Positions 4,743 through 41,038 of a stretch of 41,039 nucleotides of DNA are shown in pieces. Below the pieces are notes generated by a model. It was not told where the DNA came from. It saw only the letters and a list, made by a program, of their open reading frames with translations, and did no database searches. Location: sequence record NC_093712.1. One strand, written 5' to 3'. The translations under genes were made by a program, and so were the position numbers. Position 1 is the stretch's first letter. Every line of letters starts with the position of its first letter. The DNA comes from a phage.

Positions 4743-4772
4743 TTGCACACCCCAATATAATAGGGTACTATT
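4743..4772 (+). promoter_or_regulatory. sigma70-like promoter (TTGCAC-17-TACTAT) with operator AATAG-N4-CTATT at 4759-4772; drives plus-strand accessory island
   Basis: Motif CTTGCACACCCCAAyATAATAGGrTACTATTCAC also found upstream of genes at 24188..24153 and 22701..22667 (minus strand); followed by RBS GAGGAA and ATG at 4800. Confidence 0.5.
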
Positions 4773-4799
4773 CACCTGTAACTTACTGAGGAAATAATT

Positions 4800-14061: not shown

Positions 14062-15137
14062 TAATCCCCTTTCAGATAATCAGCAACACGTTTATCGAGT
14101 TCCGCCATCTGCTTAAGCGTGAGCGGATTCCCGAAACCATCTACAGATATTACGCGAAACTCTTCCGGCGATATACCGCTGTTACGGAAAATCTTACCGC
14201 GAACAGGGCCGAGGGCCTGGTCCTGGAACCACGCCGGTTGTTGCTTCAGGAACTCGTAGTAAGTGGTGTCTGCGCTTACCTGAGTACCACCATCTGCGCC
14301 TTTAGCCGCTCGTTTTGCGCCCTTATCGAGGAAGTCGAACTCCGAGATAATTACCGGCGCAGTGGTACTTCGGCAATTCGGATGCGCCGGCGGCATCGGC
14401 CCCTTACCGATTTCCCACGTCATCCCGTCCCTGACCCTGCAAATCGTACTGGTACGGCTGTCAAGCGTTGACACCCACTCATATTTCTCGATGATGTCGT
14501 CGTTCTGGCGGTACGTCTCGTTACGGGCTTCGTTGGATACGTGAGACAGCGCAGTGCGGGTTACCGTCGCGGCGTTACGCTCAGAGATGTCCGCCAGCCC
14601 ACCAGCGCCAACAACGTTCTTAACAATCTGCCGTGTTGTCTGACCTTGTACAAAGCCCATCTTAACGCCCGTTACCAGGCGCGCGACCTCCGTTTCACCC
14701 CAGCCAGACATCAGCTTAGTGAAATCAACGGGCTTGTCGCTTAACGATAAGGGCTGAAACTCGGCAGCGGCCCATACCTGTTCCGCGGTAGGTGTAACAA
14801 ATTCTGCGTTAACGTTGGCAGTCAGCGTTTTTACGTTCCACTCAGCCTCATACACGGCCAGTTCCTTAAGGTCTTCTGTCAGCTTTGTTTGCCAGTCACC
14901 AGTAAGTCCCGCCAGTGCTTCTTCAAGGTCCCGTAACAGTTTATTCAGCCGCGCAGTGCTTCGCCCGTCGTCGCCGAATAACAGCACCTGCCGTTTGATT
15001 TCATCCCGCATCTCCTGAATGAACGGTGCGAGGTCTTTCACCTCACCGGATGCGGTGCGTTGCAGCCATATCTGATGGCTGATGAGGGATGTAAGTAAGC
15101 TCATAGTTAAACCCTGTGGTACTAAAGTTAATAGCAT
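14061..15137 (-). CDS. head morphogenesis / minor head protein (SPP1 gp7 / Mu F-like)
   Basis: 358-aa ORF directly after portal gene; start could instead be internal ATG at 15104. Confidence 0.6.
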   Translation of the reverse strand: MLLTLVPQGLTMSLLTSLISHQIWLQRTASGEVKDLAPFIQEMRDEIKRQVLLFGDDGRSTARLNKLLRDLEEALAGLTGDWQTKLTEDLKELAVYEAEWNVKTLTANVNAEFVTPTAEQVWAAAEFQPLSLSDKPVDFTKLMSGWGETEVARLVTGVKMGFVQGQTTRQIVKNVVGAGGLADISERNAATVTRTALSHVSNEARNETYRQNDDIIEKYEWVSTLDSRTSTICRVRDGMTWEIGKGPMPPAHPNCRSTTAPVIISEFDFLDKGAKRAAKGADGGTQVSADTTYYEFLKQQPAWFQDQALGPVRGKIFRNSGISPEEFRVISVDGFGNPLTLKQMAELDKRVADYLKGD

Positions 15138-15145
15138 ACTATAAG

Positions 15146-19916: not shown

Positions 19917-20000
19917 CTTCTCTACTCCGTTCTCGTTGTCGATGGAGTAAATATAATAGGGTCGCAGGTAATAGTCAACTAGTCATTACAGAAAACAGAT

Positions 20001-22666: not shown

Positions 22667-22701
22667 AAATGAATAGTAGCCTATTCTATCTTAGTGTGCA
22701 A
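22667..22701 (-). promoter_or_regulatory. promoter (TTGCAC-17-TACTAT) with operator AATAG-N4-CTATT (22672-22685)
   Basis: Same conserved motif as 4743-4772 and 24153-24188, oriented toward downstream minus-strand genes. Confidence 0.45.
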
Positions 22702-22708
22702 GTAAATT

Positions 22709-22882
22709 TTATTGGTGTGTTATAGAGTCGATGAACGCCAGTAACTCCCTTTCCACTTCTGCTTCTCTTTCTTCAAGCGACCAGGTAGCGAATTCCTCTG
22801 TTGCCGTTGCTAAATCGGTTTTTACGTCAATCATCGTGTCGATTAACGTGATTAGTCGTTCAGCCTGTTCTTTAGTAATCAT
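22709..22882 (-). CDS. hypothetical small acidic protein (57 aa)
   Basis: Manually found ORF MITKEQAERLITLIDTMIDV..., RBS AGGAGA. Confidence 0.4.
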   Translation of the reverse strand: MITKEQAERLITLIDTMIDVKTDLATATEEFATWSLEEREAEVERELLAFIDSITHQ

Positions 22883-23016
22883 TGTTGCATCTCCTGCAAT
22901 AGTCGCTTCGATTGTTGCGTTTGATGAAAGTGTCGCCTTTTGACGACACTAAGTTAAAGCTGTACGCTGCTGTGTAGCAGCGTAAGTCACTCAGTAAAAT
23001 CCCAAACTATTGAACA

Positions 23017-23211
23017 TCACACTTCCGGCGGCTCTGGTAACGGCATCCAGTGCGACGGTTCACATACCCCCTCAACACCATCAATGTAAAAGAATTGAAA
23101 TAGCCCTTTACCTTTATGAAACCCTACCATCTGCTCTTTTGTATCAGAGCAATAAACCAAAACATCTTCATCCTTTGGCATCCGCTCACTGCACTTAATC
23201 CACTCACCCAT
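23017..23211 (-). CDS. DUF551-like small phage protein
   Basis: 64 aa with WIKCSERMP...HWMPLPEPP pattern typical of DUF551 proteins of enterobacterial phages (recalled). Confidence 0.6.
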   Translation of the reverse strand: MGEWIKCSERMPKDEDVLVYCSDTKEQMVGFHKGKGLFQFFYIDGVEGVCEPSHWMPLPEPPEV

Positions 23212-23214
23212 AAA

Positions 23215-23358
23215 TCACCTCTGATTCGCGATAAACAACACACCAGCTTTCCACGCCCGCCACGCGAGACGCGTCTTAACGTTCAGGTACTCTTTCTTCG
23301 AACCCTTGTTAACCGGCAGACCCTCGACTATAGCCCACCGTTCAAATGCTTCTCTCAT
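23215..23358 (-). CDS. hypothetical small protein (47 aa)
   Basis: Manually translated; ATGA-coupled to upstream ORF. Confidence 0.35.
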   Translation of the reverse strand: MREAFERWAIVEGLPVNKGSKKEYLNVKTRLAWRAWKAGVLFIANQR

Positions 23359-23510
23359 ACCAGAACCTCACATTCATCCCGATACACGAACAATAACGAC
23401 CCTTTGTACTCAATCATAAAACCATAATGGTTGCTGCTGAACGCCAGAAAAACATCACCTACCGAGATACCGAAATCTATAAGCCTGCGGTCAGTTATTC
23501 GGATTCTCAT
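23355..23510 (-). CDS. hypothetical small protein (51 aa)
   Basis: Manually translated ORF MRIRITDRRLIDFGISVGDVF...; starts 4 nt after upstream stop. Confidence 0.35.
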   Translation of the reverse strand: MRIRITDRRLIDFGISVGDVFLAFSSNHYGFMIEYKGSLLFVYRDECEVLV

Positions 23511-23513
23511 AGC

Positions 23514-23705
23514 TCAGTCCTCATCATCTTCTAAGTCTGGGTACACTATGAAATCTCCAACCCTCTGCAACTCCGCACCCGCCATAAAATAGCCAAGTGC
23601 TTCGGCTCTTTCGGAATCGGTTTTAAACTCAGACAAAGGATATCTTTCGTAGAACTTGTTAATTAATAACGCCTGGTCAAACTTAGTCGCATCATAATTT
23701 TTCAT
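23514..23705 (-). CDS. hypothetical small acidic protein; G12 homopolymer sits immediately 5' of its ATG (or inside an N-terminal extension to 23798)
   Basis: ATG at 23705 lies 5 nt after the homopolymer, which may serve as SD-like sequence; the longer track ORF (23514..23798) reads through the tract as RGGGVG. Confidence 0.45.
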   Translation of the reverse strand: MKNYDATKFDQALLINKFYERYPLSEFKTDSERAEALGYFMAGAELQRVGDFIVYPDLEDDED

Positions 23706-23710
23706 ACCAA

Positions 23711-23722
23711 CCCCCCCCCCCC
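23711..23722. repeat. homopolymeric tract, C12 on plus strand (G12 in the mRNA sense)
   Basis: Directly visible: ccaa cccccccccccc gcaacgcg. Confidence 0.9.
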
Positions 23723-23754
23723 GCAACGCGCACACCACATGAACGGTTAAAGTA

Positions 23755-23946
23755 TTATTCATGGCAACCTCCCTCGGAGTCGTCGGCGCGAGCATCATGA
23801 TTCGATGCCGTTTGCTCCCGCACTTCTACCATCCTTCCTACCACTGCGGCATAATACACATACCGCTTTATTGCGTAATCTTTATTACTTGTCGTCTCTG
23901 TTATGACCCCGTCGACGTATACGTCGTAAATTAATTCCCCCATCAC
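23755..23946 (-). CDS. hypothetical small protein (63 aa)
   Basis: ORF track; ATGA-type coupling with upstream ORF. Confidence 0.45.
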   Translation of the reverse strand: MMGELIYDVYVDGVITETTSNKDYAIKRYVYYAAVVGRMVEVREQTASNHDARADDSEGGCHE

Positions 23947-24125
23947 TTCGCCCCTTTGAATTTAAAATTGTTGCCGATGAGTTCTAAATTATCGTGACGA
24001 ACATAACCATGTTTCCTCCGTATAAGGCTAAATACGGCGACAACACCATATTCATCCTCGTCTTTGGTAGCTATTACGTGTTGCCGGCTGCGCTTTGTTT
24101 TTGCCAACTGACCATTCTTAAACAT
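23943..24125 (-). CDS. hypothetical small basic protein (60 aa)
   Basis: ATG at 24125 preceded by AGGAG (track start 24134 is GTG); first gene downstream of promoter at 24188..24153. Confidence 0.45.
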   Translation of the reverse strand: MFKNGQLAKTKRSRQHVIATKDEDEYGVVAVFSLIRRKHGYVRHDNLELIGNNFKFKGAK

Positions 24126-24152: not shown

Positions 24153-24188
24153 TAAGTGAATAGTATCCTATTATGTTGGGGTGTGCAA
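24153..24188 (-). promoter_or_regulatory. early-left promoter (TTGCAC-17-TACTAT) with operator AATAG-N4-CTATT (24159-24172)
   Basis: Conserved motif; -35 at 24188..24183, -10 at 24165..24160; RBS and ATG follow ~30 nt downstream on minus strand. Confidence 0.5.
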
Positions 24189-24589: not shown

Positions 24590-24772
24590 ATGCCGCATTA
24601 CATGACACAGAATGAAGTAGCTGAACGTATCGGGGTGACACGTCAGACAATTAATAACTGGCTGCGCAGTGGTAAATTCCCGGATTGCTGTATTAAGGTT
24701 ATGGGTCGCCGTTTACCGGGAACATTCGACCGTAATAAAGTTGAAGCATGGATTAAGGAGAACGTGAAATGA
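24590..24772 (+). CDS. small HTH DNA-binding protein (AlpA/excisionase-like HTH)
   Basis: ATG at 24590 with AGGAG RBS (track ORF starts upstream at 24518); MTQNEVAERIGVTRQTINNWLRSGKFP is a typical HTH_17-type motif. Confidence 0.6.
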   Translation: MPHYMTQNEVAERIGVTRQTINNWLRSGKFPDCCIKVMGRRLPGTFDRNKVEAWIKENVK

Positions 24773-25049: not shown

Positions 25050-25178
25050 ATGACAAAGTTAATAGTTCCACAGCTACGCCGCCAGAAACACGGCGCTGAT
25101 TTCTTCGCACCAGTAAAGATGAACCGCGCAATGCGCCGTATGCAGGAAGCCTTAGAACGTGCGGAGAAAAAGAAATGA
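25050..25178 (+). CDS. hypothetical small basic protein (42 aa)
   Basis: Manually found; stop overlaps primase start (ATGA). Confidence 0.35.
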   Translation: MTKLIVPQLRRQKHGADFFAPVKMNRAMRRMQEALERAEKKK

Positions 25179-27436
25179 ATATTGTTTTTGCGACGCTGCG
25201 TAACACATTCGATAAAAACCCTGTAGCGCGTGAAATGCCACTGGAGCAGTTTGTGGAGTATGTCTGCGATACATCGAAGCGTTTATCCGTGGATCCGTCG
25301 TGGTCTAAGGAAGAGTACGACGCTGCCAAGATTAAGCAGAAAGCTATCGCGCCTGTTGGGGGTCGCCGTAAAAACGCTATCCTTGAAGACAGTGTGGTTA
25401 AGTTCGACTTCGACCATCTCAACCGTACTCAGTACCGCTACCTGACACGCAAATTCAAGAACGCGACGTTCTTCAACATTCTGCACACAACGGCATCGCA
25501 TCAGCATGCGTGTAAAAACGGGGATTACGCATTCCGCGTTCTGGTTCCAGCTCGCACGCCGTTTAACTCTAACGACGCGTGGATGGTGCAACGTGCTATT
25601 TGTGCCGAGTTAGAAATAGATGAATCGCTGCGCGACCACTGCACGGAAGACGGCAACCGCCTCATCTACCTGCCACATAAAGAGTCTAAGATAACGGTTA
25701 CAGAAGGGCGTGTTATCCGTGCGGAGCGGTACATCAAGAAAGCCGAAGAGATGGGGCTGCGTAAACGCGAGGCTAAGACACTTGCCGCCGATGAGCACGG
25801 GCTTAACGCAGATATAGCTCATTTCTGCGAAGCCGAGCTGGGCCTTGACGCTTTATCTTCCGGCCGAGGGTATGAAGTGCCATGCCCTAATGAACATCTG
25901 CATACAGGCAAAGGCTCCACCAGCATCATGCTTGACGGTAAAGAGGTGCGCTTCGTGTGCCAGCACACAAACAACGGCGCTTGTACCGAGCTTAACCGTC
26001 GGCAACATTTGGCCTTGCGTATGTGCGGCCTGCCCGACGAGCTTAACGTAGACAAGCAACCTATCAGTATTAACAGCATTCGTGCGGCTTTGCCTGACTT
26101 ACCGGACGAAGAGATTGAAGAACTGCACCGCACAGAGAACGAGGAGCCTGTAACTTGTACGCTTGAAGACCTCGAAGACGAGCCGGAAGTAGAAAAAGAA
26201 CCTGCTTACCCCGTAGTAGACGGCCTTATGCAGACCAACGAATCGTTCTACATTTGCGCAAAGTCCCACACTGGTAAGTCAACATTTAGTATGGCGATTG
26301 ATGCTGCTATCGCCGCCGAAAAAAGATATGCGTTCGGTGGTGCTGAGGTCGCAGAAGGTTGTGCATTTATCTTCGCGGGCGAAGGTGCGCAGTCGTTCGA
26401 GAGTCATAAAAAATCTTTGCAGATTGCACTTGGCGATAGCCTCGACCGCTTACACATTATCGATTGTGTTGCAGATGGGTGTAACCTCCTCGACGAAGCA
26501 TGGCGTCGCCAGGCGGTGAGAATGATGCGCCGTGTTGCCGGTGAAGAGAAAATTGTAAAGGTTACGTTTGATACTCTACAAACTTGCATACCGGGCTTCG
26601 ACGAGAACGACAACCGGTCTATGAAAGAAGCAGCGCAGGCGCTTAACGAAATAGCATCGACGCTTAACGCCGCGGTAGGTGCAATGGTGCACCCGACTAA
26701 AAACATCGACGAAACCGTACCATCCGAGAACGGCATGATGCCGAAAGGTGGTAGTGATTTTCACAACTCCATCGATAACGGGATGTTTCTGCATAAACCG
26801 GACAACGATAACAACTTAGAGATAAACCTGTACCACATAAAGAACCGAAACGGAGAACGGCAGAAAGCCAGAGGATTCGTAATACAGAAGATTCAGATAG
26901 CGGAACCACCAGAAAAGAAAGAACCAACTCACAACTTCATGGGTCTTCCAGAAGGGTACAGTAGTGACGATGTGCGCGATTTTGACGCGGGAAATCCGCA
27001 TATTGATGTCTTTGTCAACTTCAACGCCTTCTCTGTCTTCGTGAAGAAAGTAGAAGGTATGACCGACGAACAGAAGGAAGCCGTTAAAGAAAAGGTAGGC
27101 CAGTTCGAGAAACTGGATTCCAAAGAGGCTACGGTTATTTACGCATTGGGTAAATTGCAGGAGCAGGGTGACGACAAGCGCGGGTTTTCTATGTCCGCTA
27201 TCGTCAAAGCGGCGAAAGAAGATAGTTACGGCGTACCGATTAACGCTAATAACGACCTTCGAAAGAAACTGGAAGAGATGCATGAGGCCGGGATTATCGT
27301 CTCGGGTCTGGATAACAACAACAGGCCCATACCTAAGCAGTACCGGCTGCCGTGGGGCATAAACGACAACAAGATTCCGAAGACGATATACGAACCGAAT
27401 GAGATGCTGATAGTGACCGAGGAAGATTTGGAATAG
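25175..27436 (+). CDS. replication protein: primase-like N-terminal region with zinc-binding motif fused to P-loop NTPase (helicase-like) domain
   Basis: 753 aa; CPNEHLHTGKG...CQHTNNGAC zinc-finger-like; Walker A AKSHTGKST and Walker B-like hydrophobic-D segment. Confidence 0.6.
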   Translation: MNIVFATLRNTFDKNPVAREMPLEQFVEYVCDTSKRLSVDPSWSKEEYDAAKIKQKAIAPVGGRRKNAILEDSVVKFDFDHLNRTQYRYLTRKFKNATFFNILHTTASHQHACKNGDYAFRVLVPARTPFNSNDAWMVQRAICAELEIDESLRDHCTEDGNRLIYLPHKESKITVTEGRVIRAERYIKKAEEMGLRKREAKTLAADEHGLNADIAHFCEAELGLDALSSGRGYEVPCPNEHLHTGKGSTSIMLDGKEVRFVCQHTNNGACTELNRRQHLALRMCGLPDELNVDKQPISINSIRAALPDLPDEEIEELHRTENEEPVTCTLEDLEDEPEVEKEPAYPVVDGLMQTNESFYICAKSHTGKSTFSMAIDAAIAAEKRYAFGGAEVAEGCAFIFAGEGAQSFESHKKSLQIALGDSLDRLHIIDCVADGCNLLDEAWRRQAVRMMRRVAGEEKIVKVTFDTLQTCIPGFDENDNRSMKEAAQALNEIASTLNAAVGAMVHPTKNIDETVPSENGMMPKGGSDFHNSIDNGMFLHKPDNDNNLEINLYHIKNRNGERQKARGFVIQKIQIAEPPEKKEPTHNFMGLPEGYSSDDVRDFDAGNPHIDVFVNFNAFSVFVKKVEGMTDEQKEAVKEKVGQFEKLDSKEATVIYALGKLQEQGDDKRGFSMSAIVKAAKEDSYGVPINANNDLRKKLEEMHEAGIIVSGLDNNNRPIPKQYRLPWGINDNKIPKTIYEPNEMLIVTEEDLE

Positions 27437-27445
27437 GCAAAAAGA

Positions 27446-27464
27446 AAGGGGCGTTAAGCCCCTT
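27446..27464. terminator. bidirectional hairpin terminator between convergent primase and XRE genes
   Basis: AAGGGGC-GTTAA-GCCCCTT; the XRE stop codon lies in the loop. Confidence 0.6.
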
Positions 27465-27669
27465 CACCTAGCGCCAGCCACTTGGCGTCTACTTCCAGCA
27501 CTTCCGCCAGTTTAAACAGCGTTGCCGGGCGGACGTCCTGAGTTACACCGAGCGCAAGCTGGTTAATCGCGCCCTGGGAAACGCCGGTCAGGACAGCCAG
27601 ACGGCGCTGGGAGATGCCGAGTTCTTTACGGCGTTGTTCTACGCGGATGCCTAGTTCAGATGGTTGCAT
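27454..27669 (-). CDS. XRE/Cro-CI family HTH transcriptional repressor
   Basis: 71 aa; RKELGISQRRLAVLTGVSQGAINQLALG is a canonical XRE-type HTH; divergently placed beside operator-bearing promoters; RBS TAAGGAG. Confidence 0.75.
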   Translation of the reverse strand: MQPSELGIRVEQRRKELGISQRRLAVLTGVSQGAINQLALGVTQDVRPATLFKLAEVLEVDAKWLALGEGA

Positions 27670-27689
27670 GTTAATTACTCCTTAGTCAG

Positions 27690-27762
27690 TTGATATGTGA
27701 ATAGTACCATATTAATTATTTTAGAAAAGCCCATTGACAAGTGAATAGTTCGCTATTATAGT
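27690..27762 (+). promoter_or_regulatory. tandem early-right promoters (TTGATA-17-TAATTA and TTGACA-17-TATAGT), each with operator AATAG-N4-(C/A)TATT in the spacer; overlaps divergent -10 TATAAT for the XRE gene
   Basis: Operators at 27700-27713 and 27744-27757; minus-strand TATAAT at 27760..27755. Confidence 0.55.
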
Positions 27763-27793
27763 TAGCCCATACCAAACGAGAGGAGAGAAACAA

Positions 27794-28258
27794 ATGTTAG
27801 AGAAATTCTTAGTATTACTGGAACGTTTCGTAGTTGCGCATGAACTGATTGCCGCGAACAGTGCGAAACAAGTTGTTCAGGTTGCCGAAACTGCAACAAT
27901 AGAGCCTACTGTTGTGAAAGAAGTAACGAAAGAAATCCCGGTCGAAGGTGAAGACATCGTCGACACTAAACCGGCAGAAGAAGAGAAGCCGAAACGCAAG
28001 CCGCGTAAAGCTAAAGCAGAGGAACCGACGCCAGAGCCGGAAGAAGAGGTAGATTACGGGTCTCTTCGTGATCAGATTCAGGCTATCGACGATGCAATTA
28101 ACGAAGGTCCGAGTGATGCCGCGTGTGACGATTCTGATGAACTGCTGGAAGAGTTCACCGGCAAGAAGATGAAGATTGCCGCGATTAAAGACGAAGACTT
28201 GGCGGAATACCTGGAACGCCTGACGGCAATCAAGAACAAGTATTTCGAAGAAGAATAA
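27794..28258 (+). CDS. highly acidic, low-complexity early protein (function unknown)
   Basis: 154 aa; Glu/Asp/Pro/Lys-rich central region and acidic C-terminus; first gene of early-right operon. Confidence 0.6.
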   Translation: MLEKFLVLLERFVVAHELIAANSAKQVVQVAETATIEPTVVKEVTKEIPVEGEDIVDTKPAEEEKPKRKPRKAKAEEPTPEPEEEVDYGSLRDQIQAIDDAINEGPSDAACDDSDELLEEFTGKKMKIAAIKDEDLAEYLERLTAIKNKYFEEE

Positions 28259-28301
28259 CTATCCTGCGGCCTTCGGGCCGCTTTAACTGAGGGGCGGAAT
28301 T

Positions 28302-28580
28302 ATGATTTACCAACTCTACCGCGCCGTAGACAGGCGGGATAACACAGAGGCGCTATGGCTATTGCGTGCGCCGTCCGGTGCGCACCAGATGGAAGAGATG
28401 GCGTACTTAGGCAAAGTGCCGCGGCCTAAAGATATAGGCCGTCACGTGTCGCAGATTAAACGCACGACTTTCGCCAAGCCTGACTTTTATGTCTTCGAGT
28501 CGATGTACGGCTGGGCCTTACATTGTGACCACAAGACCAGACATTTAATCGACCAGTGGGAGAACAGGGTATGTTTGTGA
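28302..28580 (+). CDS. hypothetical protein (92 aa)
   Basis: ORF track; RBS GAGGGG. Confidence 0.5.
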   Translation: MIYQLYRAVDRRDNTEALWLLRAPSGAHQMEEMAYLGKVPRPKDIGRHVSQIKRTTFAKPDFYVFESMYGWALHCDHKTRHLIDQWENRVCL

Positions 28581-28711
28581 TTATGTATCAAATCGGTGAG
28601 GAAGAGTACGAACACAGTAGATACCTTACATCCGCAGAGGCCGAGAATATGATACACGAACTTGACGCTGACAGTTTCGACTACGCATGGATTGAGGAGA
28701 GTGAGGAGTGA
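28571..28711 (+). CDS. hypothetical small acidic protein (46 aa)
   Basis: Manually found ORF MFVIMYQIGEEEYEHSRYLTSAEAENMIHELDADSFDYAWIEESEE. Confidence 0.3.
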   Translation: MFVIMYQIGEEEYEHSRYLTSAEAENMIHELDADSFDYAWIEESEE

Positions 28712-28862
28712 CGAACCGTAAAGCCCGTTTTCTGTTTGTTAAACGCCATCAGCCTTTTCGCGTAAGCAACTCGACTTGGCTGATTATATTCAACCGTAGC
28801 GGCGACACGTGCACCTACAAACGCAAAACGCGTAAAGTTAAATGGGGTGGGAGTTTAAGAGC

Positions 28863-30146
28863 ATGAAACTAAAAGAACGTGGCGGCAATAACGATGTGCA
28901 CGCCCTGCTGTCGCCGTCTGGGGCTAAAAAGTGGCTAAGTTGCGCCGCATCGCTGGCCTGTGAAAAAGATATTCCTAACACGTCAGGTAAAGCTGCTGTA
29001 TTAGGCACAGCTATGCACACAATAGCTGAGGTCCATCTCAACGCCTATATCCGCGGAACTGCGTTGCCGCTAGAGCGTGAAGTCGGTGCTTACGTGCTGG
29101 ATGAGGGTAAAGGCCAGATTAAGGCGCTAATCAGCCCGATGAAAGGCGCGGTACTGATTACGGCGGACATGATTGAGCAGGTGCAAAAGTATACCGACTA
29201 CTGCAAAGCGATTATTGATGTAGCGACTTACGCCAAGCTGGAAATGCGTATCAATCTTACACAGATTCTACACCCCGGGTACAAAGTACCCGTTGAAGGT
29301 GAAGAAGGTGAAGAAGGCGAGGAAGATGATTTAGAGACGTTCGGAACGGCTGACCTTGTTGCCGTTCAGGAACTGGCTAACACCGACGAGTACATGCTCA
29401 TTATTGGCGACCTTAAAACGGGTCGGCATCGTGTCGAAGCGAAAGAAAACAAGCAGCTTATGCTTTACGCTCTCGGTGTTTATCGCAGACTCAAGAGACG
29501 TTATAACATCACCGTGGTCCGTCTGGTTATCTTCCAGCCGTACGCGGGCGGTGCGTCGGAGTGGGACATCTCGGTTGAGGGACTTGAACTGTTCGCTAAG
29601 TTCGCACAGAAACGGGCGCTGTTGGCCCTTGATGCCTATTTCCGCGGTAAGAAGAACCTGAAAGCGTCGGACTTCAAGCCATCGGCCGATGGTTGCCAGT
29701 GGTGCCGGTTCTCTGAACAATGCGCCGCGCGTACAAAGACGGTTAATTCTGTACTGGCGGAAGAACTTGAAGACGACTTTGCGCTGGAACTGACACCAGA
29801 GCAACTCGTAGCTGAGTATGAGAAGTTGCCGTTGTTGCGCCAGCACATCGACAAGGTTGAAAAAGCTATGGCCGCCGCGCTGCATTCCGGTAAGAAAGTG
29901 CCTGGGTACAAACTGGTCGAGGGACGTCCTGGCAATCGTGCGTGGAAAGACGCGGAGAAAGTAACAGAACTCTACGGCGACAAGCTGACTAAAGAAGTGC
30001 TCATGTCACCTACCGAAGCTGTTAAAGTCATACCGGAAGAAGAACTGAAAGACTTCATTACCCGTAAGCCGGGCGCACCATGTGTCGCAACGGCAGACGA
30101 CAAACGTCCTGAGTGGAATCAGGTAACAGAGGAGGATTTAGAATGA
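28863..30146 (+). CDS. PD-(D/E)XK nuclease, DUF2800 / Cas4-RecB-like exonuclease
   Basis: N-terminal HALLSPSGAKKWLSCAAS, D...IGDLKTG catalytic-type motif, C-terminal Cys cluster CQWCRFSEQC; ATG at 28863 has GGGAG RBS (track start 28842). Confidence 0.65.
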   Translation: MKLKERGGNNDVHALLSPSGAKKWLSCAASLACEKDIPNTSGKAAVLGTAMHTIAEVHLNAYIRGTALPLEREVGAYVLDEGKGQIKALISPMKGAVLITADMIEQVQKYTDYCKAIIDVATYAKLEMRINLTQILHPGYKVPVEGEEGEEGEEDDLETFGTADLVAVQELANTDEYMLIIGDLKTGRHRVEAKENKQLMLYALGVYRRLKRRYNITVVRLVIFQPYAGGASEWDISVEGLELFAKFAQKRALLALDAYFRGKKNLKASDFKPSADGCQWCRFSEQCAARTKTVNSVLAEELEDDFALELTPEQLVAEYEKLPLLRQHIDKVEKAMAAALHSGKKVPGYKLVEGRPGNRAWKDAEKVTELYGDKLTKEVLMSPTEAVKVIPEEELKDFITRKPGAPCVATADDKRPEWNQVTEEDLE

Positions 30147-30298
30147 GTACGATTCAGGAATTACATAAAAGCTACTTACAACAACACCGAAACGGCGCCA
30201 AGCTGGGCAGGAGCAAAACAATATACCGGGTATTCAGGATGGTAATTAGGGATGAGTCGGCTAAAATTATACGTATGACAAAAGAAACGTTTAAATAA
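30143..30298 (+). CDS. hypothetical small basic protein (51 aa)
   Basis: ATGA-coupled ATG at 30143 (track ORF starts at 30113). Confidence 0.4.
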   Translation: MSTIQELHKSYLQQHRNGAKLGRSKTIYRVFRMVIRDESAKIIRMTKETFK

Positions 30299-30301: not shown

Positions 30302-30330
30302 GTTGACACCTGAATAGTAAGCTATTATAG
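30302..30330 (+). promoter_or_regulatory. promoter TTGACA-17-TATAGT with operator AATAG-N4-CTATT (30312-30325)
   Basis: Perfect -35, operator in spacer; upstream of SSB-like gene. Confidence 0.55.
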
Positions 30331-30386
30331 TTCTAATCACTGGCCGGGCAGCTTCCCCGGAGTAAACTTAAAAGCGAGAAATCACG

Positions 30387-33609: not shown

Positions 33610-33890
33610 CACCGGAAGGCAAAATACAGAAATACGCAAAAGAGCGATTCGAGGCCATCGGCGGCCTCGTTCGTAAGCTCTCCTACGAGGGGCGCTCCGG
33701 CGCTCCCGACCTGCTGGTAATTCTCCCCGGCGGCATAGTCTGGTTCGTCGAGGTGAAGAAAGACGAAAACACGAAGCCGGACCCGCACCAGATACGTGAG
33801 CACGAGCGGATGCGTAAACGTGGTGCGAATGTTTTTGTCGTTGGTTCGTTTAAACAGGTTGACGACCTAATAGCGAGCTATTATAGTTAA
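33606..33890 (+). CDS. VRR-NUC domain nuclease
   Basis: PD-(D/E)XK-type signature GAPDLLVIL...VWFVEVKK; ATG at 33606 is ATGA-coupled (track start 33591 is TTG). Confidence 0.7.
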   Translation: MTPEGKIQKYAKERFEAIGGLVRKLSYEGRSGAPDLLVILPGGIVWFVEVKKDENTKPDPHQIREHERMRKRGANVFVVGSFKQVDDLIASYYS

Positions 33891-35680: not shown

Positions 35681-35710
35681 AAGGCCCCGTTTGGGGCCTT
35701 AGTTTTATTT
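35681..35710. terminator. bidirectional rho-independent terminator between convergent replication operon and tailspike gene
   Basis: AAGGCCCC-GTTT-GGGGCCTT with T-runs on both strands. Confidence 0.75.
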
Positions 35711-38659
35711 ATCTTCTAGTGCTGCCAGCCTCTTCTCGAACTCGCGCATCTTCTTACGCTGATAGGCAATCTCTATGAAGAACATCTGGTCCGCCCTAAC
35801 CCCCCATCTGCCGCCGGGAGGGGATACTTGTACAGTCTGGCCATCTTCATCAATATCATACGCAGCTTCAATTGAGTCGTAGCACAAGAAAGCATATTTA
35901 CACTCGGTAGAATCTTTCTCCATAAGCCCATGGTTGACCAAGATGTCTCGCACATCTTGGGCTATCACACCGAAGTGTATCCTTGCAGTGTCACCCTTGA
36001 TTGCTAGGCTTTCAAGCCACTTAAAAGATATTACATGTATATCCTCCCATGCGGTAAGGAGTTGTCCCTCAATTTCCTCTTTGTTCGTCTTAAGTGTACC
36101 ATCAGACGTGTTTATCGTACCGGTGGCCGCGTACACCGTAGTCCACCTATTACCTGCCGAACCTAAAGACACTTTCGAGTCTAAGTAAGGAAGAAAATTG
36201 TTGTATGAGTAGAAGCCTCCTGACGCATACATAATAGCCCTGTTAGGCTTTGCATGGTTTGCCCCGTACAGTTGCAGCAACGCACCATCGGAACTGGATG
36301 CACCATCACCACCGCTAACTATCAGTCTTTGACCCGATGGGGTTTTAGTGGGGACTGTTTTTGAAATCAGCCCGTAATCACCATCAAACCGTGCGCGCAC
36401 GGCAGACTGTTGTGTACCATCGTATTCCAGCCCCGTTACATGCAGGGAGTACACGCTTACATCATTGTCAAACGTTAAAGGTGCTTCTACATGGCGTACA
36501 CCATCTACCCCCATGGCGACAGGTATTGTACGGTTAGGAGTTGCTCCGTATTTGAAATCACGTGATACGTACGGGTGGTCTTCAATCTTTATCCGGTAGC
36601 TATATAAGTCAGCCGGATGCCCATCATGTTTGTACCATAACCTCGCACTGTTATCCCCTATGCTCCAGGGAGAGAAGAAGTCTTCCCCACCAAAGATATA
36701 GTACAACCAGCCATCTTTAACACAGACCGAGCCGACGCCGACAGCAGTGTTAACGATATGACCCTGGTATATTTGGTCGGTAATATTAAACCACTGAACA
36801 TCATCTAAAGATGAAGGCCAGGACGACACATTAACTTTGCACATAAAGGTCCTCGGATACGAACCTTCATAGCGGCTGTCCTGCTCGCCACCTTCCCACT
36901 CACCAAAGGCACGTTCTGTACCAAAGATGTATAGATAGTCACCTACTTTAGCGAACGGAAGATTGGAGTGATGTACATTGTCCGGAAATCGCAAGTAGCT
37001 CCAGTTTTGCCCAGAATCGGTGCTCATCGCCAGTGTAGAGCCAGGGGAAGTAGGTAATGTGCCGCGTGTGGTAAGGTATAACACACCACCATAACTTTTC
37101 ACGCACGGCTCAGAAGCGTTGTCAGCGTATGCCTGAGCGACAGTGCGACGAACGAATACGCCAGGATTGTCATACACGTTACTAAAATACAAGACACCGA
37201 GACGCCTAGGGGACACATCGCCGTTGTGATAGCCGACAGCGATAGTGTAGTTAACATCATCTATAACCGCAAAACTATGTGTCTCCGTGACACACAAATC
37301 AGCGTTAGTGGAGTATGCTACCCCAGGCAATTCGGTAATTTCCCACGGGCTGTCCCAGAATCGCGTTGCGAAGTTCCAGGTAACACCCGCATTGTTTATG
37401 GTGGAACTCGCCGGGCTTGAGAGCGTAACAGTGAACGTATTTCGGTTAATTATAGACGAAACCGTCATATTACCCGATACGCCAGTTGCCGATGTATTAG
37501 AGAAGTTAACCGCATCTCCTGCTTTTAGGCCATGATTTTCTATGACAATGGTAGCAGTAGTGGAGCCAGAACTAATAGTTATTCCGCCGGTTGGGTGTCT
37601 AAAATACGGCATTGGGCGTGACCAAAGTTCTGCCTTCTTCATCCGCATATTAGATAAGTAGCGGGTTTCTATAACGGCATATAATCGGTTGCCGCACGTA
37701 CCCATGCTCATGCAGTGGTAGTTAACTCTGTCCGTAGAAACACTAGCATTATAGTCAGCATGGATTGGAGTCAACCATTCAGGCATTGACCAAGTCTGCC
37801 CGTCGTCTCCAGAGCGAACCCAAGCTACATGTAAGTTTTGAACACCATGTCGTTCGCCCGCCATAAACGGGGCGTAAATAACATGGTCGTAGACGAAAGT
37901 TTTATCCTGCGTCCATGCGTTGTAGAACGGGGTATCCGTCACCTTAGTTAGTGAGCCGTTAAAGAAGCCATCAGCTACATAAGTAAGCGGTTGCCCGGCT
38001 ACGCGCTCGTAAACGAATGCAGCATTCTTAAATTTACTAATGTCAGGTAATTGGGAAACTTTATAAGTCAAACCCCTGCCGTCTATAATCCAATTGTTGA
38101 GGGAAGCTGCTAATACATTAAAAATAGATTGAGTATCATCAGTTACGCCGTCGCCCACGGCGCCCCATGCGCGCGGGTCGTATTCGTCCTTCCATCGCGC
38201 CACATGTAAATCTGGGTACAGAATTGCACCGTTTACATCAGATATTTGCTGCCGCAGTATGACCGACCCGACAGGCTGCCACGCCCCATCTGCCACGCCA
38301 CCGGTGGACTGCGGAGAAGATGACGCTGGGATAATTTTTGGTAGAGCACCCAACCAATAGTACCAATCCCCGTCACCGCCAGAGGACGACGGCCACAAAA
38401 CTGCGGTGTTTCGGTCGTTAGCGGATAGTGTACCGCCTGACGTGAAATCAAAATCTGCCAGTTTAAAACCAGCATCACGCAACACGGCAGGTAACGTCTT
38501 CTGGGTCTGTCCAGTAACCTGATTTGTCGCGTAATCAATATCGGCACCACCGGCGACACCGCCGGATTTGCCAGTGATAACCTCGGCCTCGAAAATCTGA
38601 TGTTTCTTGGCGGTTTGTAAATCCGCCAGGCTTAAAACGTCACCGCATCCGCTTGACAT
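35705..38659 (-). CDS. tailspike: sialidase-fold depolymerase (endosialidase-like) with C-terminal intramolecular chaperone domain
   Basis: 984 aa; two Asp-boxes SGDDGQTW and STDSGQNW; C-terminal TINTSDGTLKTNKEEI...FKWLE resembles the self-cleaving chaperone domain of K1-phage endosialidases and T5 L-shaped fibre (recalled). Confidence 0.6.
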   Translation of the reverse strand: MSSGCGDVLSLADLQTAKKHQIFEAEVITGKSGGVAGGADIDYATNQVTGQTQKTLPAVLRDAGFKLADFDFTSGGTLSANDRNTAVLWPSSSGGDGDWYYWLGALPKIIPASSSPQSTGGVADGAWQPVGSVILRQQISDVNGAILYPDLHVARWKDEYDPRAWGAVGDGVTDDTQSIFNVLAASLNNWIIDGRGLTYKVSQLPDISKFKNAAFVYERVAGQPLTYVADGFFNGSLTKVTDTPFYNAWTQDKTFVYDHVIYAPFMAGERHGVQNLHVAWVRSGDDGQTWSMPEWLTPIHADYNASVSTDRVNYHCMSMGTCGNRLYAVIETRYLSNMRMKKAELWSRPMPYFRHPTGGITISSGSTTATIVIENHGLKAGDAVNFSNTSATGVSGNMTVSSIINRNTFTVTLSSPASSTINNAGVTWNFATRFWDSPWEITELPGVAYSTNADLCVTETHSFAVIDDVNYTIAVGYHNGDVSPRRLGVLYFSNVYDNPGVFVRRTVAQAYADNASEPCVKSYGGVLYLTTRGTLPTSPGSTLAMSTDSGQNWSYLRFPDNVHHSNLPFAKVGDYLYIFGTERAFGEWEGGEQDSRYEGSYPRTFMCKVNVSSWPSSLDDVQWFNITDQIYQGHIVNTAVGVGSVCVKDGWLYYIFGGEDFFSPWSIGDNSARLWYKHDGHPADLYSYRIKIEDHPYVSRDFKYGATPNRTIPVAMGVDGVRHVEAPLTFDNDVSVYSLHVTGLEYDGTQQSAVRARFDGDYGLISKTVPTKTPSGQRLIVSGGDGASSSDGALLQLYGANHAKPNRAIMYASGGFYSYNNFLPYLDSKVSLGSAGNRWTTVYAATGTINTSDGTLKTNKEEIEGQLLTAWEDIHVISFKWLESLAIKGDTARIHFGVIAQDVRDILVNHGLMEKDSTECKYAFLCYDSIEAAYDIDEDGQTVQVSPPGGRWGVRADQMFFIEIAYQRKKMREFEKRLAALEDK

Positions 38660-38671
38660 ATAGAGTCCTCT

Positions 38672-41038
38672 TTAATTAAAACCATTGCTGAATCCGTCGG
38701 AGAAACCGCTGCCGTATGGCGCGACGCCGTCGTATTTGTAGAATCCGTCGTCATAGTTGTAGCCCGTAATCTTGACCGTGCGGTCGTCGCCAGGGTCGAT
38801 TGATGAAACAACTATCTTCTGAGCATTATGCCTTGCTTCGTTGCCGAATGAAAACTCAGTTTTTAGTGCGCTATTCCCTGTGTAGATTGCTTCCTCTGGG
38901 GCAGAAAGCATAATCACTTCGCGGTCGTGGCTTCCTTTGATAACAGAGATACTCTGCACAGAGCCGTCGCGCTTCTTAAGAATGATGGAGTGGTCGTCCC
39001 CGGGAGTAAACGTAACAGGCTGTGACAGCGTCAGCGTAAGCCCGTTAACGGCAACAACATAACCATCTTGCGGGGCGATGCGGGAGCCTTTAACTACGCT
39101 GATTACACCGCCGGGTGTAGCGAGAGCGCCTTCTTCTGTAGCTTCGAACTCTACGACAACTTTACTTAACGCATTGCGCTGATAGCGACGCCGCGCCAGC
39201 CAGTACGCCTGCTGATAGTTACGCACGCCTTTCGATTCGTACTCCTCCGTGTTTGCGCCGAGTTCTTCCGGGATATAAATAGCTTCCTGTACGTTAGTAT
39301 CCGGGTCAATGTACGAGAACGACAGGCTATCGTAGGTCGTAGAATCATTAAACGTGCGGGTCCATTTCTCTGTACCAGTAGTTTTGCTGCGGTGAGTGAA
39401 CACCATCTCGGGCCCTGCAACCGGGCGGTCGAAGCGCAACATAATATCCGCGCCTTTACGGTACGCGGTACAGAACACGGCTTCGGCTATAGTCTGAACG
39501 ATGTCCTGCATCGTGGTGTCGTAATCGTCGAACGTGTAGCAGAACTGACCTGCTAATTCGCTGCCAAAATAGGACTCAATTTCTTCTTGCACGGCAAGCA
39601 ACTTATCCATGTTTGCCGTCGTCAGTTCCAGATTACCCACCACCGGGTCGCGAGCCAGTCTGATTAGCGACTGCACCGCTTGAGTGTTCGGTGTCATTAC
39701 GCTATCAAATACGCCGTTACCTAGATATTTGTAGCACATCTCGGTTGCAATCATGCGCAGTTCCGGGTTGTCTATACTGGCTGCACGCGGCGTCTGTTTA
39801 CGGGCGCAATGCACCGTTGTCCTATTGCCGTAGTGAGGGGTGGTGTCAAGTGATTGCCCGTACAGGTTGATGAATGTTATTTCGTCACTTACCGTTCCGC
39901 CGTAATCCTTATCGAAATTCGTTATACGGCGCATACGGGCGCGGAAGCGCGATGCTGTCGGTAACTGCCCGTAAATAGACGTACCGACGTAATCCGTGCT
40001 ATTACCAGTAATCGTAGCCCGTACCGTGTAAATGTCGCTCAACGGGTTACGCTGAGAGTCAATCATCTGGTACTGGAGTTCTACCGTTACGCTGGTGCGA
40101 TTATAGCCGCCGTCATATTTGTAGAGGCCGTTTTGCCCTGCAACGTTAGCAAGCACACGGTCAACTTCCCCGCGCACCATGTAATACCAGTCGGTCAGGG
40201 ATACGTCATAGGTGTTGTTCGGGCCGATAAACGTATCTGAACGCTCTGTTAGCGTGTACGTCTGCCCGCTAGTCAACGCGGCCCAGTTAGACGCCCCGTT
40301 TACGGCTAATCTTACTTCGAAGTCGTCAACGTATAAAACTTCAAACGAGCCGTTCAGGTTAGTGACATCAGCAACGTCAAAGTTGCTCAACACCGCGACA
40401 TCACCGACGCTAAGAAACTCAGAAAAAGCAGAGTCGCCGGACGGGTCATAAATGTAGCCGGTGTTTGAAATACGTTTGGCTGTGCCGTCGGCGCTTGGGT
40501 TAGCCCCGATGTCGTTTGGCGCTTTCAGTACAATACCGTCAACGTCGTCGTTGGAGTATGTCACATAGAGTTTCTGGTCAATGACGTCGCCGATTTGTAG
40601 TTGCGGCGATGCGGTGTTGTTCGGTGACGTGTACGGTGCATATACAGCAACAGAGGAACCGGTGATGTCGCTTATCAGGGTATCGCCTTCCGTGACGCCA
40701 TCAGACTCGATATGCAGATGCCCGCGCCCGGCATCATAGTACGAATACTCCAGCAAAGCACCCGTGGAGTTGAACGCCTTATACGTCTGCATCAGGTCGT
40801 TAGGGATTGTCTGCACAGTCCCGCAGATGTCATAAGAGCGCCCATAGGGGCGCGGCTTGTTGGAGCGGTCTGTGAGACTGTTATTAGGCGATGTTGTCCG
40901 GTTGTTAGTCGCTGTGTAGTTGGCGTTTGCGGACATGTTCAACCCAAACAACTTAGCGATTGGCTTAAGGATAAAACCAAACACCTTACTAACCGCACCG
41001 AGCGCCCCGCTACCCGCACCCTCAATAATGTGGTACAT
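38672..41038 (-). CDS. central tail fibre / host specificity protein, lambda gpJ-like (reading frame reaches window edge; N-terminus may lie outside)
   Basis: 788 aa in window; segment SRFRARMRRITNF resembles conserved FNIRMRRMT region of lambda J; directly upstream of tailspike. Confidence 0.6.
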   Translation of the reverse strand: MYHIIEGAGSGALGAVSKVFGFILKPIAKLFGLNMSANANYTATNNRTTSPNNSLTDRSNKPRPYGRSYDICGTVQTIPNDLMQTYKAFNSTGALLEYSYYDAGRGHLHIESDGVTEGDTLISDITGSSVAVYAPYTSPNNTASPQLQIGDVIDQKLYVTYSNDDVDGIVLKAPNDIGANPSADGTAKRISNTGYIYDPSGDSAFSEFLSVGDVAVLSNFDVADVTNLNGSFEVLYVDDFEVRLAVNGASNWAALTSGQTYTLTERSDTFIGPNNTYDVSLTDWYYMVRGEVDRVLANVAGQNGLYKYDGGYNRTSVTVELQYQMIDSQRNPLSDIYTVRATITGNSTDYVGTSIYGQLPTASRFRARMRRITNFDKDYGGTVSDEITFINLYGQSLDTTPHYGNRTTVHCARKQTPRAASIDNPELRMIATEMCYKYLGNGVFDSVMTPNTQAVQSLIRLARDPVVGNLELTTANMDKLLAVQEEIESYFGSELAGQFCYTFDDYDTTMQDIVQTIAEAVFCTAYRKGADIMLRFDRPVAGPEMVFTHRSKTTGTEKWTRTFNDSTTYDSLSFSYIDPDTNVQEAIYIPEELGANTEEYESKGVRNYQQAYWLARRRYQRNALSKVVVEFEATEEGALATPGGVISVVKGSRIAPQDGYVVAVNGLTLTLSQPVTFTPGDDHSIILKKRDGSVQSISVIKGSHDREVIMLSAPEEAIYTGNSALKTEFSFGNEARHNAQKIVVSSIDPGDDRTVKITGYNYDDGFYKYDGVAPYGSGFSDGFSNGFN

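What the first reader, a model, noticed from the sequence alone, without database searches (positions are those of the whole stretch)
27670..27793. Fourteen-bp palindromic operator AATAG-N4-CTATT embedded in at least six early promoters, with adjacent autoregulated XRE repressor gene
The motif tgAATAG-N4-CTATTat recurs at 4759-4772, 22672-22685, 24159-24172, 27700-27713, 27744-27757 and 30312-30325, always inside a sigma70-like promoter (either TTGACA-17-TATAGT with the operator in the spacer, or TTGCAC-17-TACTAT with the operator over the -10). In this region two such promoters fire rightward into the replication genes while a perfect TATAAT on the other strand overlaps the second operator and faces the XRE repressor gene (27454..27669). 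This predicts a phage-wide early regulon shut off by one repressor, which also controls the accessory island at 4800.
Basis: seen in the sequence. Interest (0 to 1): 0.6.

Follow-up and report, generated by a model that had tools for sequence, protein, structure and literature searches.

The report
Cro-like repressor operators in Kagunavirus promoters
A 14-bp palindrome sits inside at least seven host-type promoters of this virulent E. coli phage. It is most likely the binding site of the phage's small 434-Cro-like repressor, which is encoded beside two of the sites. This is an ordinary kind of switch, and the repeat was already published but mislabelled as a "phage promoter".

Summary
The window is a Kagunavirus (Guernseyvirinae), 95% identical to Escherichia phage G AB-2017. 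AATAG-N4-CTATT occurs six times exactly (0.01 expected): 4759, 22672, 24159, 27744, 30313 and 33869. 27700 has one mismatch, and 30312 should read 30313.

Across about 35 related genomes the half-sites are nearly invariant, while the central N4 and the adjoining linkers vary. This points to a protein-binding dyad.

The 71-aa XRE protein is 40% identical to 434 Cro, which also uses a 14-bp operator. In every Guernseyvirinae lineage examined its gene lies in the divergent promoter region of the replication module. In at least seven of them (Kagunavirus, Jerseyvirus, phiEap-2 group, Pantoea AH01, PSDA-2 group, L072 group, Hafnia TS33) it is flanked by two dyads; Tsm2, the Klebsiella 37P2 group and the L071 group show only one or a degenerate one. 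Lineages with divergent XRE proteins use variant dyads (AATAC, WTTAGC). The second HTH protein is absent from a genome that keeps the dyad.

Operator and Cro-like repressor is therefore the best reading. No binding was tested.

"Early regulon" is too narrow. Two papers already listed the repeat as PHIRE "phage promoters". Verdict: a new member of a known kind, of moderate interest.

The parts
27454..27669 (-). Gene for the 71-aa XRE/Cro-like HTH protein, the candidate repressor
   Evidence: Pfam HTH_3, E = 2e-12. Best solved relatives are 434 Cro and the 434 repressor N-terminal domain. BLASTP gives 40% identity to 434 Cro over 63 aa. AF2 predicts five helices with pLDDT 85, and Foldseek matches 2cro with TM 0.77/0.83.
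27700..27713 (-). O1, an imperfect dyad (AATATGGTACTATT on the minus strand) over the proposed XRE promoter. The -10 TACTAT is at 27706-27701 and the extended -10 TG is at 27709-27708.
   Evidence: One mismatch. The mismatch is invariant in 31 distinct Kagunavirus sequences and creates TGnTACTAT. SE2 has the matching TACTAT with a TTGCGT -35.
27734..27762 (+). Class A promoter P_R (TTGACA-17-TATAGT) with the exact dyad O2 (27744-27757) in its spacer. It drives 27794.. (154 aa) through the DUF2800 nuclease.
   Evidence: Half-site diversity is 0.000, against 0.195 for N4 and 0.265 for the linker.
30303..30331 (+). Class A promoter (TTGACA-17-TATAGT) with the exact dyad at 30313-30326. It precedes the ssDNA-binding protein and DNA polymerase genes.
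33859..33887 (+). It overlaps the 3' end of the VRR-NUC gene and precedes 33921.. and the helicase gene.
24160..24188 (-). Class B promoter (TTGCAC-17-TACTAT) with the exact dyad at 24159-24172 over the -10. It drives the leftward small genes 24125..22709.
22673..22701 (-). Class B promoter (TTGCAC-17-TACTAT) with the exact dyad at 22672-22685. It drives 22641.. leftward, towards the holin and endolysin genes.
4743..4782 (.). Exact dyad at 4759-4772 shared by a class B promoter (+, TTGCAC 4743-48 / TACTAT 4766-71) for the accessory island 4800-7361. A possible opposing promoter (-, GTTACA 4782-77 / TATATT 4759-54) faces the tail genes.
   Evidence: The island genes are described.
19950..19983 (-). 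One-mismatch dyad ACTAGTTGACTATT (19970-19983) overlapping the -35 of TTGACT-17-TATATT. It lies after a terminator and before the small genes 19916.. and the terminase genes.
   Evidence: ACTAG and TTGA are invariant in 35 distinct sequences. SE2 has AATAGTTGACTAGT at the same place.
15130..15143 (-). One-mismatch dyad (TATAGTATGCTATT on the minus strand) between a terminator and gene 15104..14064. Its status as an operator is uncertain.
   Evidence: It is listed as PHIRE motif no. 1 in phage Golestan.
24530..24558 (+). Promoter-like TTGCTT-17-TATACT without a dyad, before the HTH_17 gene (24590..24772) and the helicase/primase operon. It lies outside the regulon.
   Evidence: The HTH_17 assignment is.

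Best explanation
The 14-bp dyad AATAG-N4-CTATT is the operator of the phage's own 71-aa Cro-like XRE protein. A dimer would bind with one helix-turn-helix per 5-bp half-site, as 434 Cro does on its 14-bp operators.

Every copy overlaps a core element of a host sigma70 promoter. The dyad centre lies at about -18.5 in class A, -12.5 in class B and -33.5 at the 19970 site. Binding should therefore exclude RNA polymerase and turn these promoters down.

The gene sits in a divergent control region. The perfect O2 lies in the strong rightward promoter of the replication operon. The imperfect O1 lies over the protein's own weak, extended -10 promoter. This arrangement predicts strong repression of the targets and weaker negative autoregulation.

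Shown here: the sites, their promoter contexts, selection on the half-sites, the protein family and fold, and the conserved synteny. Inferred: that XRE is the binder, that it represses, and the timing.
For: 1. Enrichment and placement. There are 6 exact sites against 0.01 expected. Nine of the 11 sites with at most one mismatch lie fully in the 7.2% of the genome that is intergenic, and a tenth covers the last 22 nt of a gene.

2. Footprint across orthologous regions retrieved by flanking similarity, not by the motif. Half-site diversity is 0-0.02. Diversity is 0.12-0.43 for N4 at the six exact sites (0.016 at the uniformly conserved O1) and 0.10-0.27 for the adjoining spacer linkers. The left half-site lies in promoter spacer DNA that sigma70 does not read.

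3. The same dyad occurs in three different registers relative to -35 and -10. It is therefore not just a copied promoter.

4. The protein. HTH_3; 434 Cro and 434 repressor are the best solved relatives over the full length; five-helix model matching 2cro. The 14-bp length is the size of a 434 operator (established knowledge).

5. Synteny. In Kagunavirus, Jerseyvirus, Tsm2, PSDA-2, phiEap-2, AH01, TS33, 37P2 and the L071/L072 groups the XRE gene lies between the divergent replication-module promoters. Two dyads flank it in Kagunavirus, Jerseyvirus, the phiEap-2 group, AH01, the PSDA-2 group, the L072 group and TS33. One of the two overlaps the XRE gene's own promoter.

6. Lineage-specific dyads, each enriched in its own genome. 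AATAG accounts for 70 of 70 half-sites in Kagunavirus. Pantoea phage AH01 uses AATAC-N4-GTATT, with 5 exact sites. The L072 group uses TTAGC-N2-GCTAA. SE2 and PSDA-2 both infect Salmonella yet differ in half-site usage, which argues against a host factor.

7. The only other HTH protein (HTH_17) is confined to Kagunavirus and Jerseyvirus. It is absent from the complete Tsm2 genome, which keeps AATAG-N4-CTATT.

8. Loci whose XRE homologue is a long cI-type protein lack the dyad set.
Against: - No binding or expression experiment exists for any member.
- Kagunavirus, Jerseyvirus and Tsm2 share the identical dyad although their recognition helices differ (SQGAINQL, SQSLITHL, SQGMLNHL). The co-variation is loose and rests on roughly six to nine lineages.
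- Any other conserved phage protein would fit the synteny-independent evidence equally well.
- Tsm2, the 37P2/L063 group and the L071 group show only one or a degenerate site beside XRE.
- In the K1B4 Kagunavirus RNA-seq series the DNA polymerase gene, which lies behind an operator-bearing promoter, is classed as late. The XRE-equivalent gene is classed as middle. That does not look like a clean early shut-off, although the infection was unsynchronised and sampled to 120 min.
- Class B -35 hexamers (TTGCAC) match the consensus at only 3 of 6 positions. Those promoters are inferred from their repeated architecture.
Confidence: 0.6

Rival explanations
1. The dyad is a real operator but is bound by something other than XRE. 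Candidates are the HTH_17 protein (24590..24772), an unrecognised small early protein, or a host transcription factor.
For: Nothing here shows XRE-DNA contact. HTH_17 is a DNA-binding protein made from a dyad-free promoter, and its K1B4 equivalent is classed as early. The identical dyad in lineages whose XRE recognition helices differ would be easier to explain with a more conserved binder. HTH_17 is 82-100% identical between Jerseyvirus and Kagunavirus.
Against: HTH_17 is absent from the complete Tsm2 and PSDA-2 genomes, which keep the dyads. Dyad variants differ between phages of one host genus, SE2 and PSDA-2 on Salmonella, so a host factor is unlikely. The dyads cluster at the XRE gene in most lineages examined.
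Confidence: 0.2
2. The repeat is a phage-specific promoter read by a phage RNA polymerase or a phage sigma factor. This is the label it carries in two genome papers that used PHIRE.
For: PMC9825357 reports seven "phage promoters" with consensus tgAATAGTa-ccTATTat-T. PMC7203180 Table S4 lists seven 20-mers of the same motif.
Against: No RNA polymerase gene is annotated in the 95%-identical genome, and none appeared among the large ORFs scanned. Each site already lies in a complete sigma70 -35/-10 pair with 17-bp spacing. The motif is a perfect dyad found in three registers and on both strands, which is unlike a directional promoter. HTH_17 hits Sigma70_r4 only below threshold (16.4 bits against a cut-off of 24.1).
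Confidence: 0.03
3. There is no binding protein. The similarity reflects duplication of a few ancestral promoters, or a DNA-shape requirement of the promoters themselves.
For: The class A copies resemble each other over 30 nt at 77-87% identity (family D1). Two class B copies are 94% complementary over 34 nt (I1).
Against: Within orthologues the half-sites are frozen, while the bases between and beside them drift. The dyad is kept in three registers. Distant lineages keep a dyad of the same geometry with changed bases. Neutral paralogy would not preserve dyad symmetry.
Confidence: 0.05
4. XRE binds the dyads but acts as an activator or a dual regulator, for example a MerR-like spacer binder or an activator at the 19970 site.
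For: Some Cro/C1-type proteins activate (lambda CI at PRM, R-M C proteins; established knowledge). The 19970 site overlaps a -35. The coarse RNA-seq series shows no early shut-off of polymerase.
Against: The spacers are already the optimal 17 bp, and the class A hexamers match 10-11 of 12 consensus positions, so no activator is needed. Dyad centres at -12.5, -18.5 and -33.5 lie inside the RNA polymerase footprint, not at -41.5 or -61.5.
Confidence: 0.07

Closest known systems
Phage 434 Cro (and the 434 repressor N-terminal domain) with the 14-bp operators OR1-3 and OL1-3
   Same: Both proteins are 71 aa. They are 40% identical over 63 aa with the five-helix HTH_3 fold. The operator is a 14-bp dyad whose outer bases are contacted and whose centre is variable. 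Operators overlap divergent promoters, and the gene is (ancestrally) the first gene of a replication operon.
   Different: There is no partner cI gene, no integrase and no lysogeny module. There are two operators 44 bp apart instead of three adjacent ones. At least seven or eight operator-bearing promoters are spread over the whole genome. The half-site is AATAG rather than ACAA. Residue Q29 of 434 is Gly here, and R43 is Ala (alignment).
Lambda Cro turning down PL and PR during lytic growth
   Same: The proposed role is the same: a small repressor made from an early operon that dampens early transcription and its own synthesis.
   Different: Lambda Cro has a different fold (mixed alpha/beta) and 17-bp operators. 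It controls only two promoter regions.
Dispersed-operator repressors: P1 C1 and the mycobacteriophage L5 gp71 'stoperators'
   Same: One phage repressor has many sites scattered through the genome and controls many transcription units.
   Different: Those sites are asymmetric, belong to temperate phages and maintain lysogeny. The proteins are unrelated to this 71-aa XRE. L5 stoperators act within transcription units, not only at promoters. (This comparison is from established knowledge and was not tested here.)
Restriction-modification controller (C) proteins such as C.BclI and C.AhdI with their C-boxes
   Same: They are small HTH_3 dimers and are structural neighbours. They bind palindromic boxes at their own promoter and autoregulate.
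   Different: C proteins control a single R-M operon and act as concentration-dependent activator-repressors. No R-M operon lies next to this gene.

Membership tests
XRE / Cro-C1-type HTH (Pfam HTH_3) | Sequence match to HTH_3 above the curated threshold | tested here: met
   47.2 bits against a cut-off of 23, E = 2.3e-12, residues 11-65.
XRE / Cro-C1-type HTH (Pfam HTH_3) | Five-helix globular fold with helices 2-3 forming the helix-turn-helix | tested here: met
   The AF2 model has pLDDT 85 and helices at 5-17, 21-28, 32-39, 48-57 and 62-66. Foldseek hits include 434 Cro, P22 c2, SinR, HipB and C proteins with TM 0.73-0.81.
434-Cro-type repressor/operator pair | Cognate operator is a 14-bp dyad overlapping promoter elements | tested here: met
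   AATAG-N4-CTATT is 14 bp, and all exact copies overlap the spacer/-10 or the -10. Assigning it to this protein is an inference.
434-Cro-type repressor/operator pair | Protein dimer binds the operator specifically | not testable with these tools
   This needs EMSA, footprinting or a protein-DNA structure.
Lambdoid immunity region (cI - OR - cro) | Divergent cI repressor gene with a C-terminal oligomerisation / S24 peptidase domain | tested here: not met
   The gene divergent from XRE is a 154-aa protein with no Pfam match. No cI or integrase is annotated in the 95%-identical genome. Long cI-type homologues occur only in unrelated contigs.
Lambdoid immunity region (cI - OR - cro) | Three adjacent operators between the divergent promoters | tested here: not met
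   There are two sites (27700, 27744) 44 bp apart centre to centre.
Phage-RNA-polymerase promoters (the PHIRE label in the literature) | Phage encodes its own RNA polymerase or sigma factor | tested here: not met
   No such gene appears in the annotation of G AB-2017 or in the Pfam/PHROG scans run here. Not every small ORF was scanned.
Toxin-antitoxin antitoxins of the XRE type (HipB, HigA) | Co-transcribed toxin gene directly adjacent | tested here: not met
   The XRE gene is monocistronic here. It is convergent with the helicase/primase gene, with a shared terminator at 27445-27465. In other lineages it is followed by the helicase/primase gene.

The most novel reading that the evidence does not exclude
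Almost every recognisable strong promoter of the genome carries the dyad, with three exceptions: the XRE gene's own weak promoter, the HTH_17 promoter, and perhaps a terminase promoter. The XRE protein could therefore silence nearly the whole genome, as P1 C1 or L5 gp71 do in prophages. This would let these "strictly virulent" therapy-candidate phages persist in a repressed, non-integrated carrier state. A milder version is that perfect operators at early promoters, together with conserved single-mismatch operators at XRE's own promoter and at late-proximal promoters, form a Cro-only timer that sets the whole temporal programme.
Probability: 0.08. Interest if true: 0.7.

Novelty: new member of a known kind. 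Interest (0 to 1): 0.4.

Why it matters
Guernseyvirinae (Kagunavirus, Jerseyvirus and relatives) are among the most commonly isolated E. coli and Salmonella phages proposed for therapy and food safety. One Kagunavirus, CM001, is cited as a synthetic-biology chassis (PMC11990801). Their transcriptional control has not been studied.

This analysis replaces a published mislabel ("phage-RNA-polymerase promoters") with a concrete, testable circuit of one 71-aa repressor and about eight mapped operators in mapped host-type promoters. It also provides natural specificity variants (AATAG, AATAC, TTAGC) that could serve as orthogonal repressor/operator pairs.

It is not a new principle. It is the Cro/operator logic of lambdoid phages, kept without cI in a virulent lineage.

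Tried and rejected
- **Rfam and tRNA scans.** Rfam at gathering thresholds and ARAGORN found nothing in the window. The dyads and the repeated intergenic element are not known RNAs.
- **Palindromes that looked enriched.** TAAGA-N4-TCTTA in L053 and L063 was dismissed as chance: the sites lie in coding sequence or on a ribosome-binding site.
- **A residue-to-base recognition code.** I looked for one between the XRE helix and the half-site. None emerged, because three different helices go with the same AATAG.
- **Dyad sets in some lineages.** The L063/37P2 and L071 groups gave only one or two convincing sites, and Scapp gave none.
- **Literature.** I searched for any prior operator or repressor interpretation and for TSS or time-course data. 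Only the PHIRE listings and one coarse RNA-seq paper turned up. Its supplements held only host tables in the part stored. The Serratia phage eta, LPSent1 and BASEL papers say nothing on this.
- **The 13502 site.** This one-mismatch site (AATAG-TTGA-CTTTT) probably owes much of its match to a TTGACT -35 that is also present in the paralogous copy at about 24470, which has no AATAG. I did not count it as an operator.
- **Searches not run.** Large protein-database searches were skipped because the IMG/VR and phage-genome sets answered the question.

Full report
**What the window is.** A 7-kb query around the finding matches 448 phage records. The best is Escherichia phage G AB-2017 (Guernseyvirinae, Kagunavirus) at 95% identity. 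Its annotation and a tblastn transfer to the window give the gene map:
- A long leftward arm (24125 down to 178, continuing in 41038..35705) holds small early genes, lysis genes, packaging, head and tail genes.
- A rightward replication arm runs from 24590 to 35676.
- A rightward accessory island (4800-7361) is set inside the tail genes.
- No integrase, cI or RNA polymerase gene is annotated.

**The observation.** AATAG-N4-CTATT occurs six times exactly (0.01 expected): 4759, 22672, 24159, 27744, 30313 and 33869. It is the most frequent 5+N+5 palindrome in the window and in G AB-2017.

Site 27700 carries one mismatch (AATAGTACCATATT). Site 30312 is 30313. Site 33869 was missed.

With one mismatch allowed there are 11 sites against 0.97 expected. 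Only 7.2% of the window is intergenic. Even so, five of the six exact sites and four of the five one-mismatch sites are wholly intergenic. The sixth exact site covers the last 22 nt of a gene, 39 nt before the next start codon.

- Three class A promoters (TTGACA/G-17-TATAGT) have the dyad in the spacer, ending on the first base of the -10.
- Three class B promoters (TTGCAC-17-TACTAT) have the dyad over the -10.
- Seven of the eight proposed -10 hexamers lie 29-35 nt before a start codon.

**Is it a binding site or just copied promoters?** I retrieved the orthologous regions from 37 Kagunavirus and 11 Jerseyvirus sequences by flanking similarity, not by the motif. I then measured per-column diversity among distinct sequences.
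- Half-sites score 0.000-0.023.
- The central four bases score 0.12-0.43 at the six exact sites (0.016 at the uniformly conserved O1).
- The linkers between the -35 and the dyad score 0.10-0.27.

The left half-site lies in spacer DNA that sigma70 does not read, so this conservation needs another reader. The dyad is also kept in three registers. Its centre is at about -18.5 in class A, about -12.5 in class B, and about -33.5 at 19970, where a conserved one-mismatch copy (ACTAGTTGACTATT) overlaps the -35 of TTGACT-17-TATATT. All three positions lie inside the RNA polymerase footprint, which points to repression.

**Who binds it?** The 71-aa product of 27454..27669 is an HTH_3 protein. Its best solved relatives are 434 Cro and the 434 repressor N-terminal domain across the full length, with 40% identity to 434 Cro. 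A single-sequence AF2 model (pLDDT 85, five helices) matches 2cro with TM 0.77/0.83. 434 operators are 14-bp dyads (established knowledge), which is the same size as this one.

I collected XRE homologues and their neighbourhoods from IMG/VR (80 loci) and eight complete genomes.
- In all Guernseyvirinae-like lineages the gene sits at the divergent promoters of the replication module.
- In Kagunavirus, Jerseyvirus, the phiEap-2 group, AH01, the PSDA-2 group, the L072 group and TS33 it is flanked by two dyads.
- One of these lies in the strong promoter of the p154-nuclease-SSB-polymerase operon, and one lies over its own promoter.
- In Tsm2, the 37P2 group and the L071 group only one or a degenerate site was found there.

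The dyad varies by lineage, and each variant is enriched in its own genome:

| Lineage | XRE recognition helix | Dyad |
|---|---|---|
| Kagunavirus | SQGAINQL | AATAG, 70 of 70 half-sites |
| Jerseyvirus, Tsm2 | SQSLITHL, SQGMLNHL | mainly AATAG |
| Pantoea phage AH01 | TQGGIGHI | AATAC-N4-GTATT, 5 exact and 5 near |
| L072 group | SQGYISHL | WTTAGC-N2-GCTAAW |
| PSDA-2, phiEap-2, TS33 | (various) | mixed AWTAS half-sites |

SE2 and PSDA-2 both infect Salmonella but differ in half-site usage, which argues against a host factor.

The only other HTH protein, HTH_17 at 24590..24772, is confined to Kagunavirus and Jerseyvirus. It is missing from the complete Tsm2 genome, which keeps the exact dyad.

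The co-variation is loose. Three different helices go with the same AATAG. I therefore put the XRE assignment at roughly 0.7, and the whole mechanism at 0.6.

**The control region 27670-27793.** O2 (27744-57, perfect) lies in TTGACA-17-TATAGT, which fires rightward.

On the other strand the site reads AATATGGTACTATT. That gives TACTAT 32 nt before the XRE start codon, preceded by TGn. The single "mismatch" (G5 to T) is exactly what creates this extended -10, and it is invariant in 31 distinct sequences. SE2 has TACTAT at the same place with a TTGCGT -35. I therefore read O1 as the operator of the XRE promoter, giving weak autoregulation.

It is a by-product of the CTATTATAGT consensus.

**Scope of the regulon.** It is wider than "early".
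- The promoter at 22672 leads towards the holin and endolysin genes.
- The 19970 site guards the promoter before the small genes and the terminase.
- The dyad at 4759 may serve two opposing promoters, one for the island and one for the tail genes.
- TTGCTT-17-TATACT (24530-58), before the HTH_17 and helicase/primase genes, has no dyad.

The one Kagunavirus RNA-seq series (PMC12645636) classes the HTH_17 equivalent as early, the XRE and helicase equivalents as middle, and the DNA polymerase as late. The infection was unsynchronised and was sampled to 120 min with a 30-min latent period. It neither supports nor excludes shut-off.

**Prior knowledge.** The repeat is already in print.
- PMC9825357 gives the consensus tgAATAGTa-ccTATTat-T for seven "phage-encoded RNA polymerase" promoters of fBC-Eco01.
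- PMC7203180 Table S4 lists seven such 20-mers in phage Golestan.

Neither paper notes the dyad symmetry, the sigma70 hexamers around it or the neighbouring XRE gene. I found no paper proposing an operator. The existence of the motif is therefore known. The operator/Cro reading appears new, but it is of a familiar kind.

**Verdict.** It is wrong or too simple in several details. No binding has been shown. I rate it a new member of a known kind, with interest 0.4.

Noticed in passing
window 13362-13520 and 24332-24492 (minus strand): An element of about 145 bp is repeated in the two longest intergenic regions at 84-94% identity. Each copy has a promoter-like TTGACT-17-TAAGCT, a conserved stretch of about 110 nt and a terminator about 200 nt downstream (13282-13301; 24250-24266). 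The two copies and their orthologues fold into the same long hairpin, with both-sided changes at 4 of 22 pairs. Fold z-scores are weak (-1.3 to -1.4). There is no Rfam or tRNA match. It may be a pair of phage small RNAs or a leader.
   Followed up: partly
window 20436-20604 (endolysin region 20196-20855): Compared with G AB-2017, the endolysin gene carries a 104-bp insertion made of a 65-nt direct repeat (98% identical) plus about 40 nt of unrelated sequence. This splits the gene into two ORFs. It is either a frameshifting duplication or an assembly artefact.
   Followed up: yes
window 12741-12748, 13524-13531, 13547-13563; about 12715-12745: TGGAATAA occurs four times (1.0 expected), all in the two intergenic regions before the spanin and scaffold/capsid genes. 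A GAATAATTTATTC palindrome abuts a TTGACA there, and PSDA-2 has the same palindrome at the equivalent places. This may be a separate late-gene control motif.
   Followed up: partly
window 4800-7361 (+): The accessory island behind the dyad promoter encodes a 108-aa unknown protein, a metallophosphoesterase (376 aa), a polynucleotide kinase-phosphatase-like HAD protein and a dNMP-kinase-like protein. This resembles a nucleic-acid repair or nucleotide-salvage module. Its content differs between lineages (a single gene in PSDA-2, a superinfection-immunity gene in 37P2).
   Followed up: partly
window 25175-27436 compared with L003, L004, L053-L072: In most Guernseyvirinae-like lineages XRE is the first gene of the helicase/primase operon. 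In Kagunavirus and Jerseyvirus the helicase/primase is only about 29-33% identical to the others. It is inverted to converge on XRE and has acquired its own dyad-free promoter and an HTH_17 gene. This looks like a module replacement that left XRE monocistronic.
   Followed up: partly
window 18537-18566 (-): A promoter-like TGTACA-18-TATAAT without a dyad lies in the 219-bp gap before the small terminase gene. It is a candidate operator-free late promoter.
   Followed up: no
window 24270-24285: A short GTGA-type repeat (GTGAGTGAGTGAGTGAG) lies in the 464-bp intergenic region between the leftward and rightward early arms. Its function is unknown (origin or spacer).
   Followed up: no
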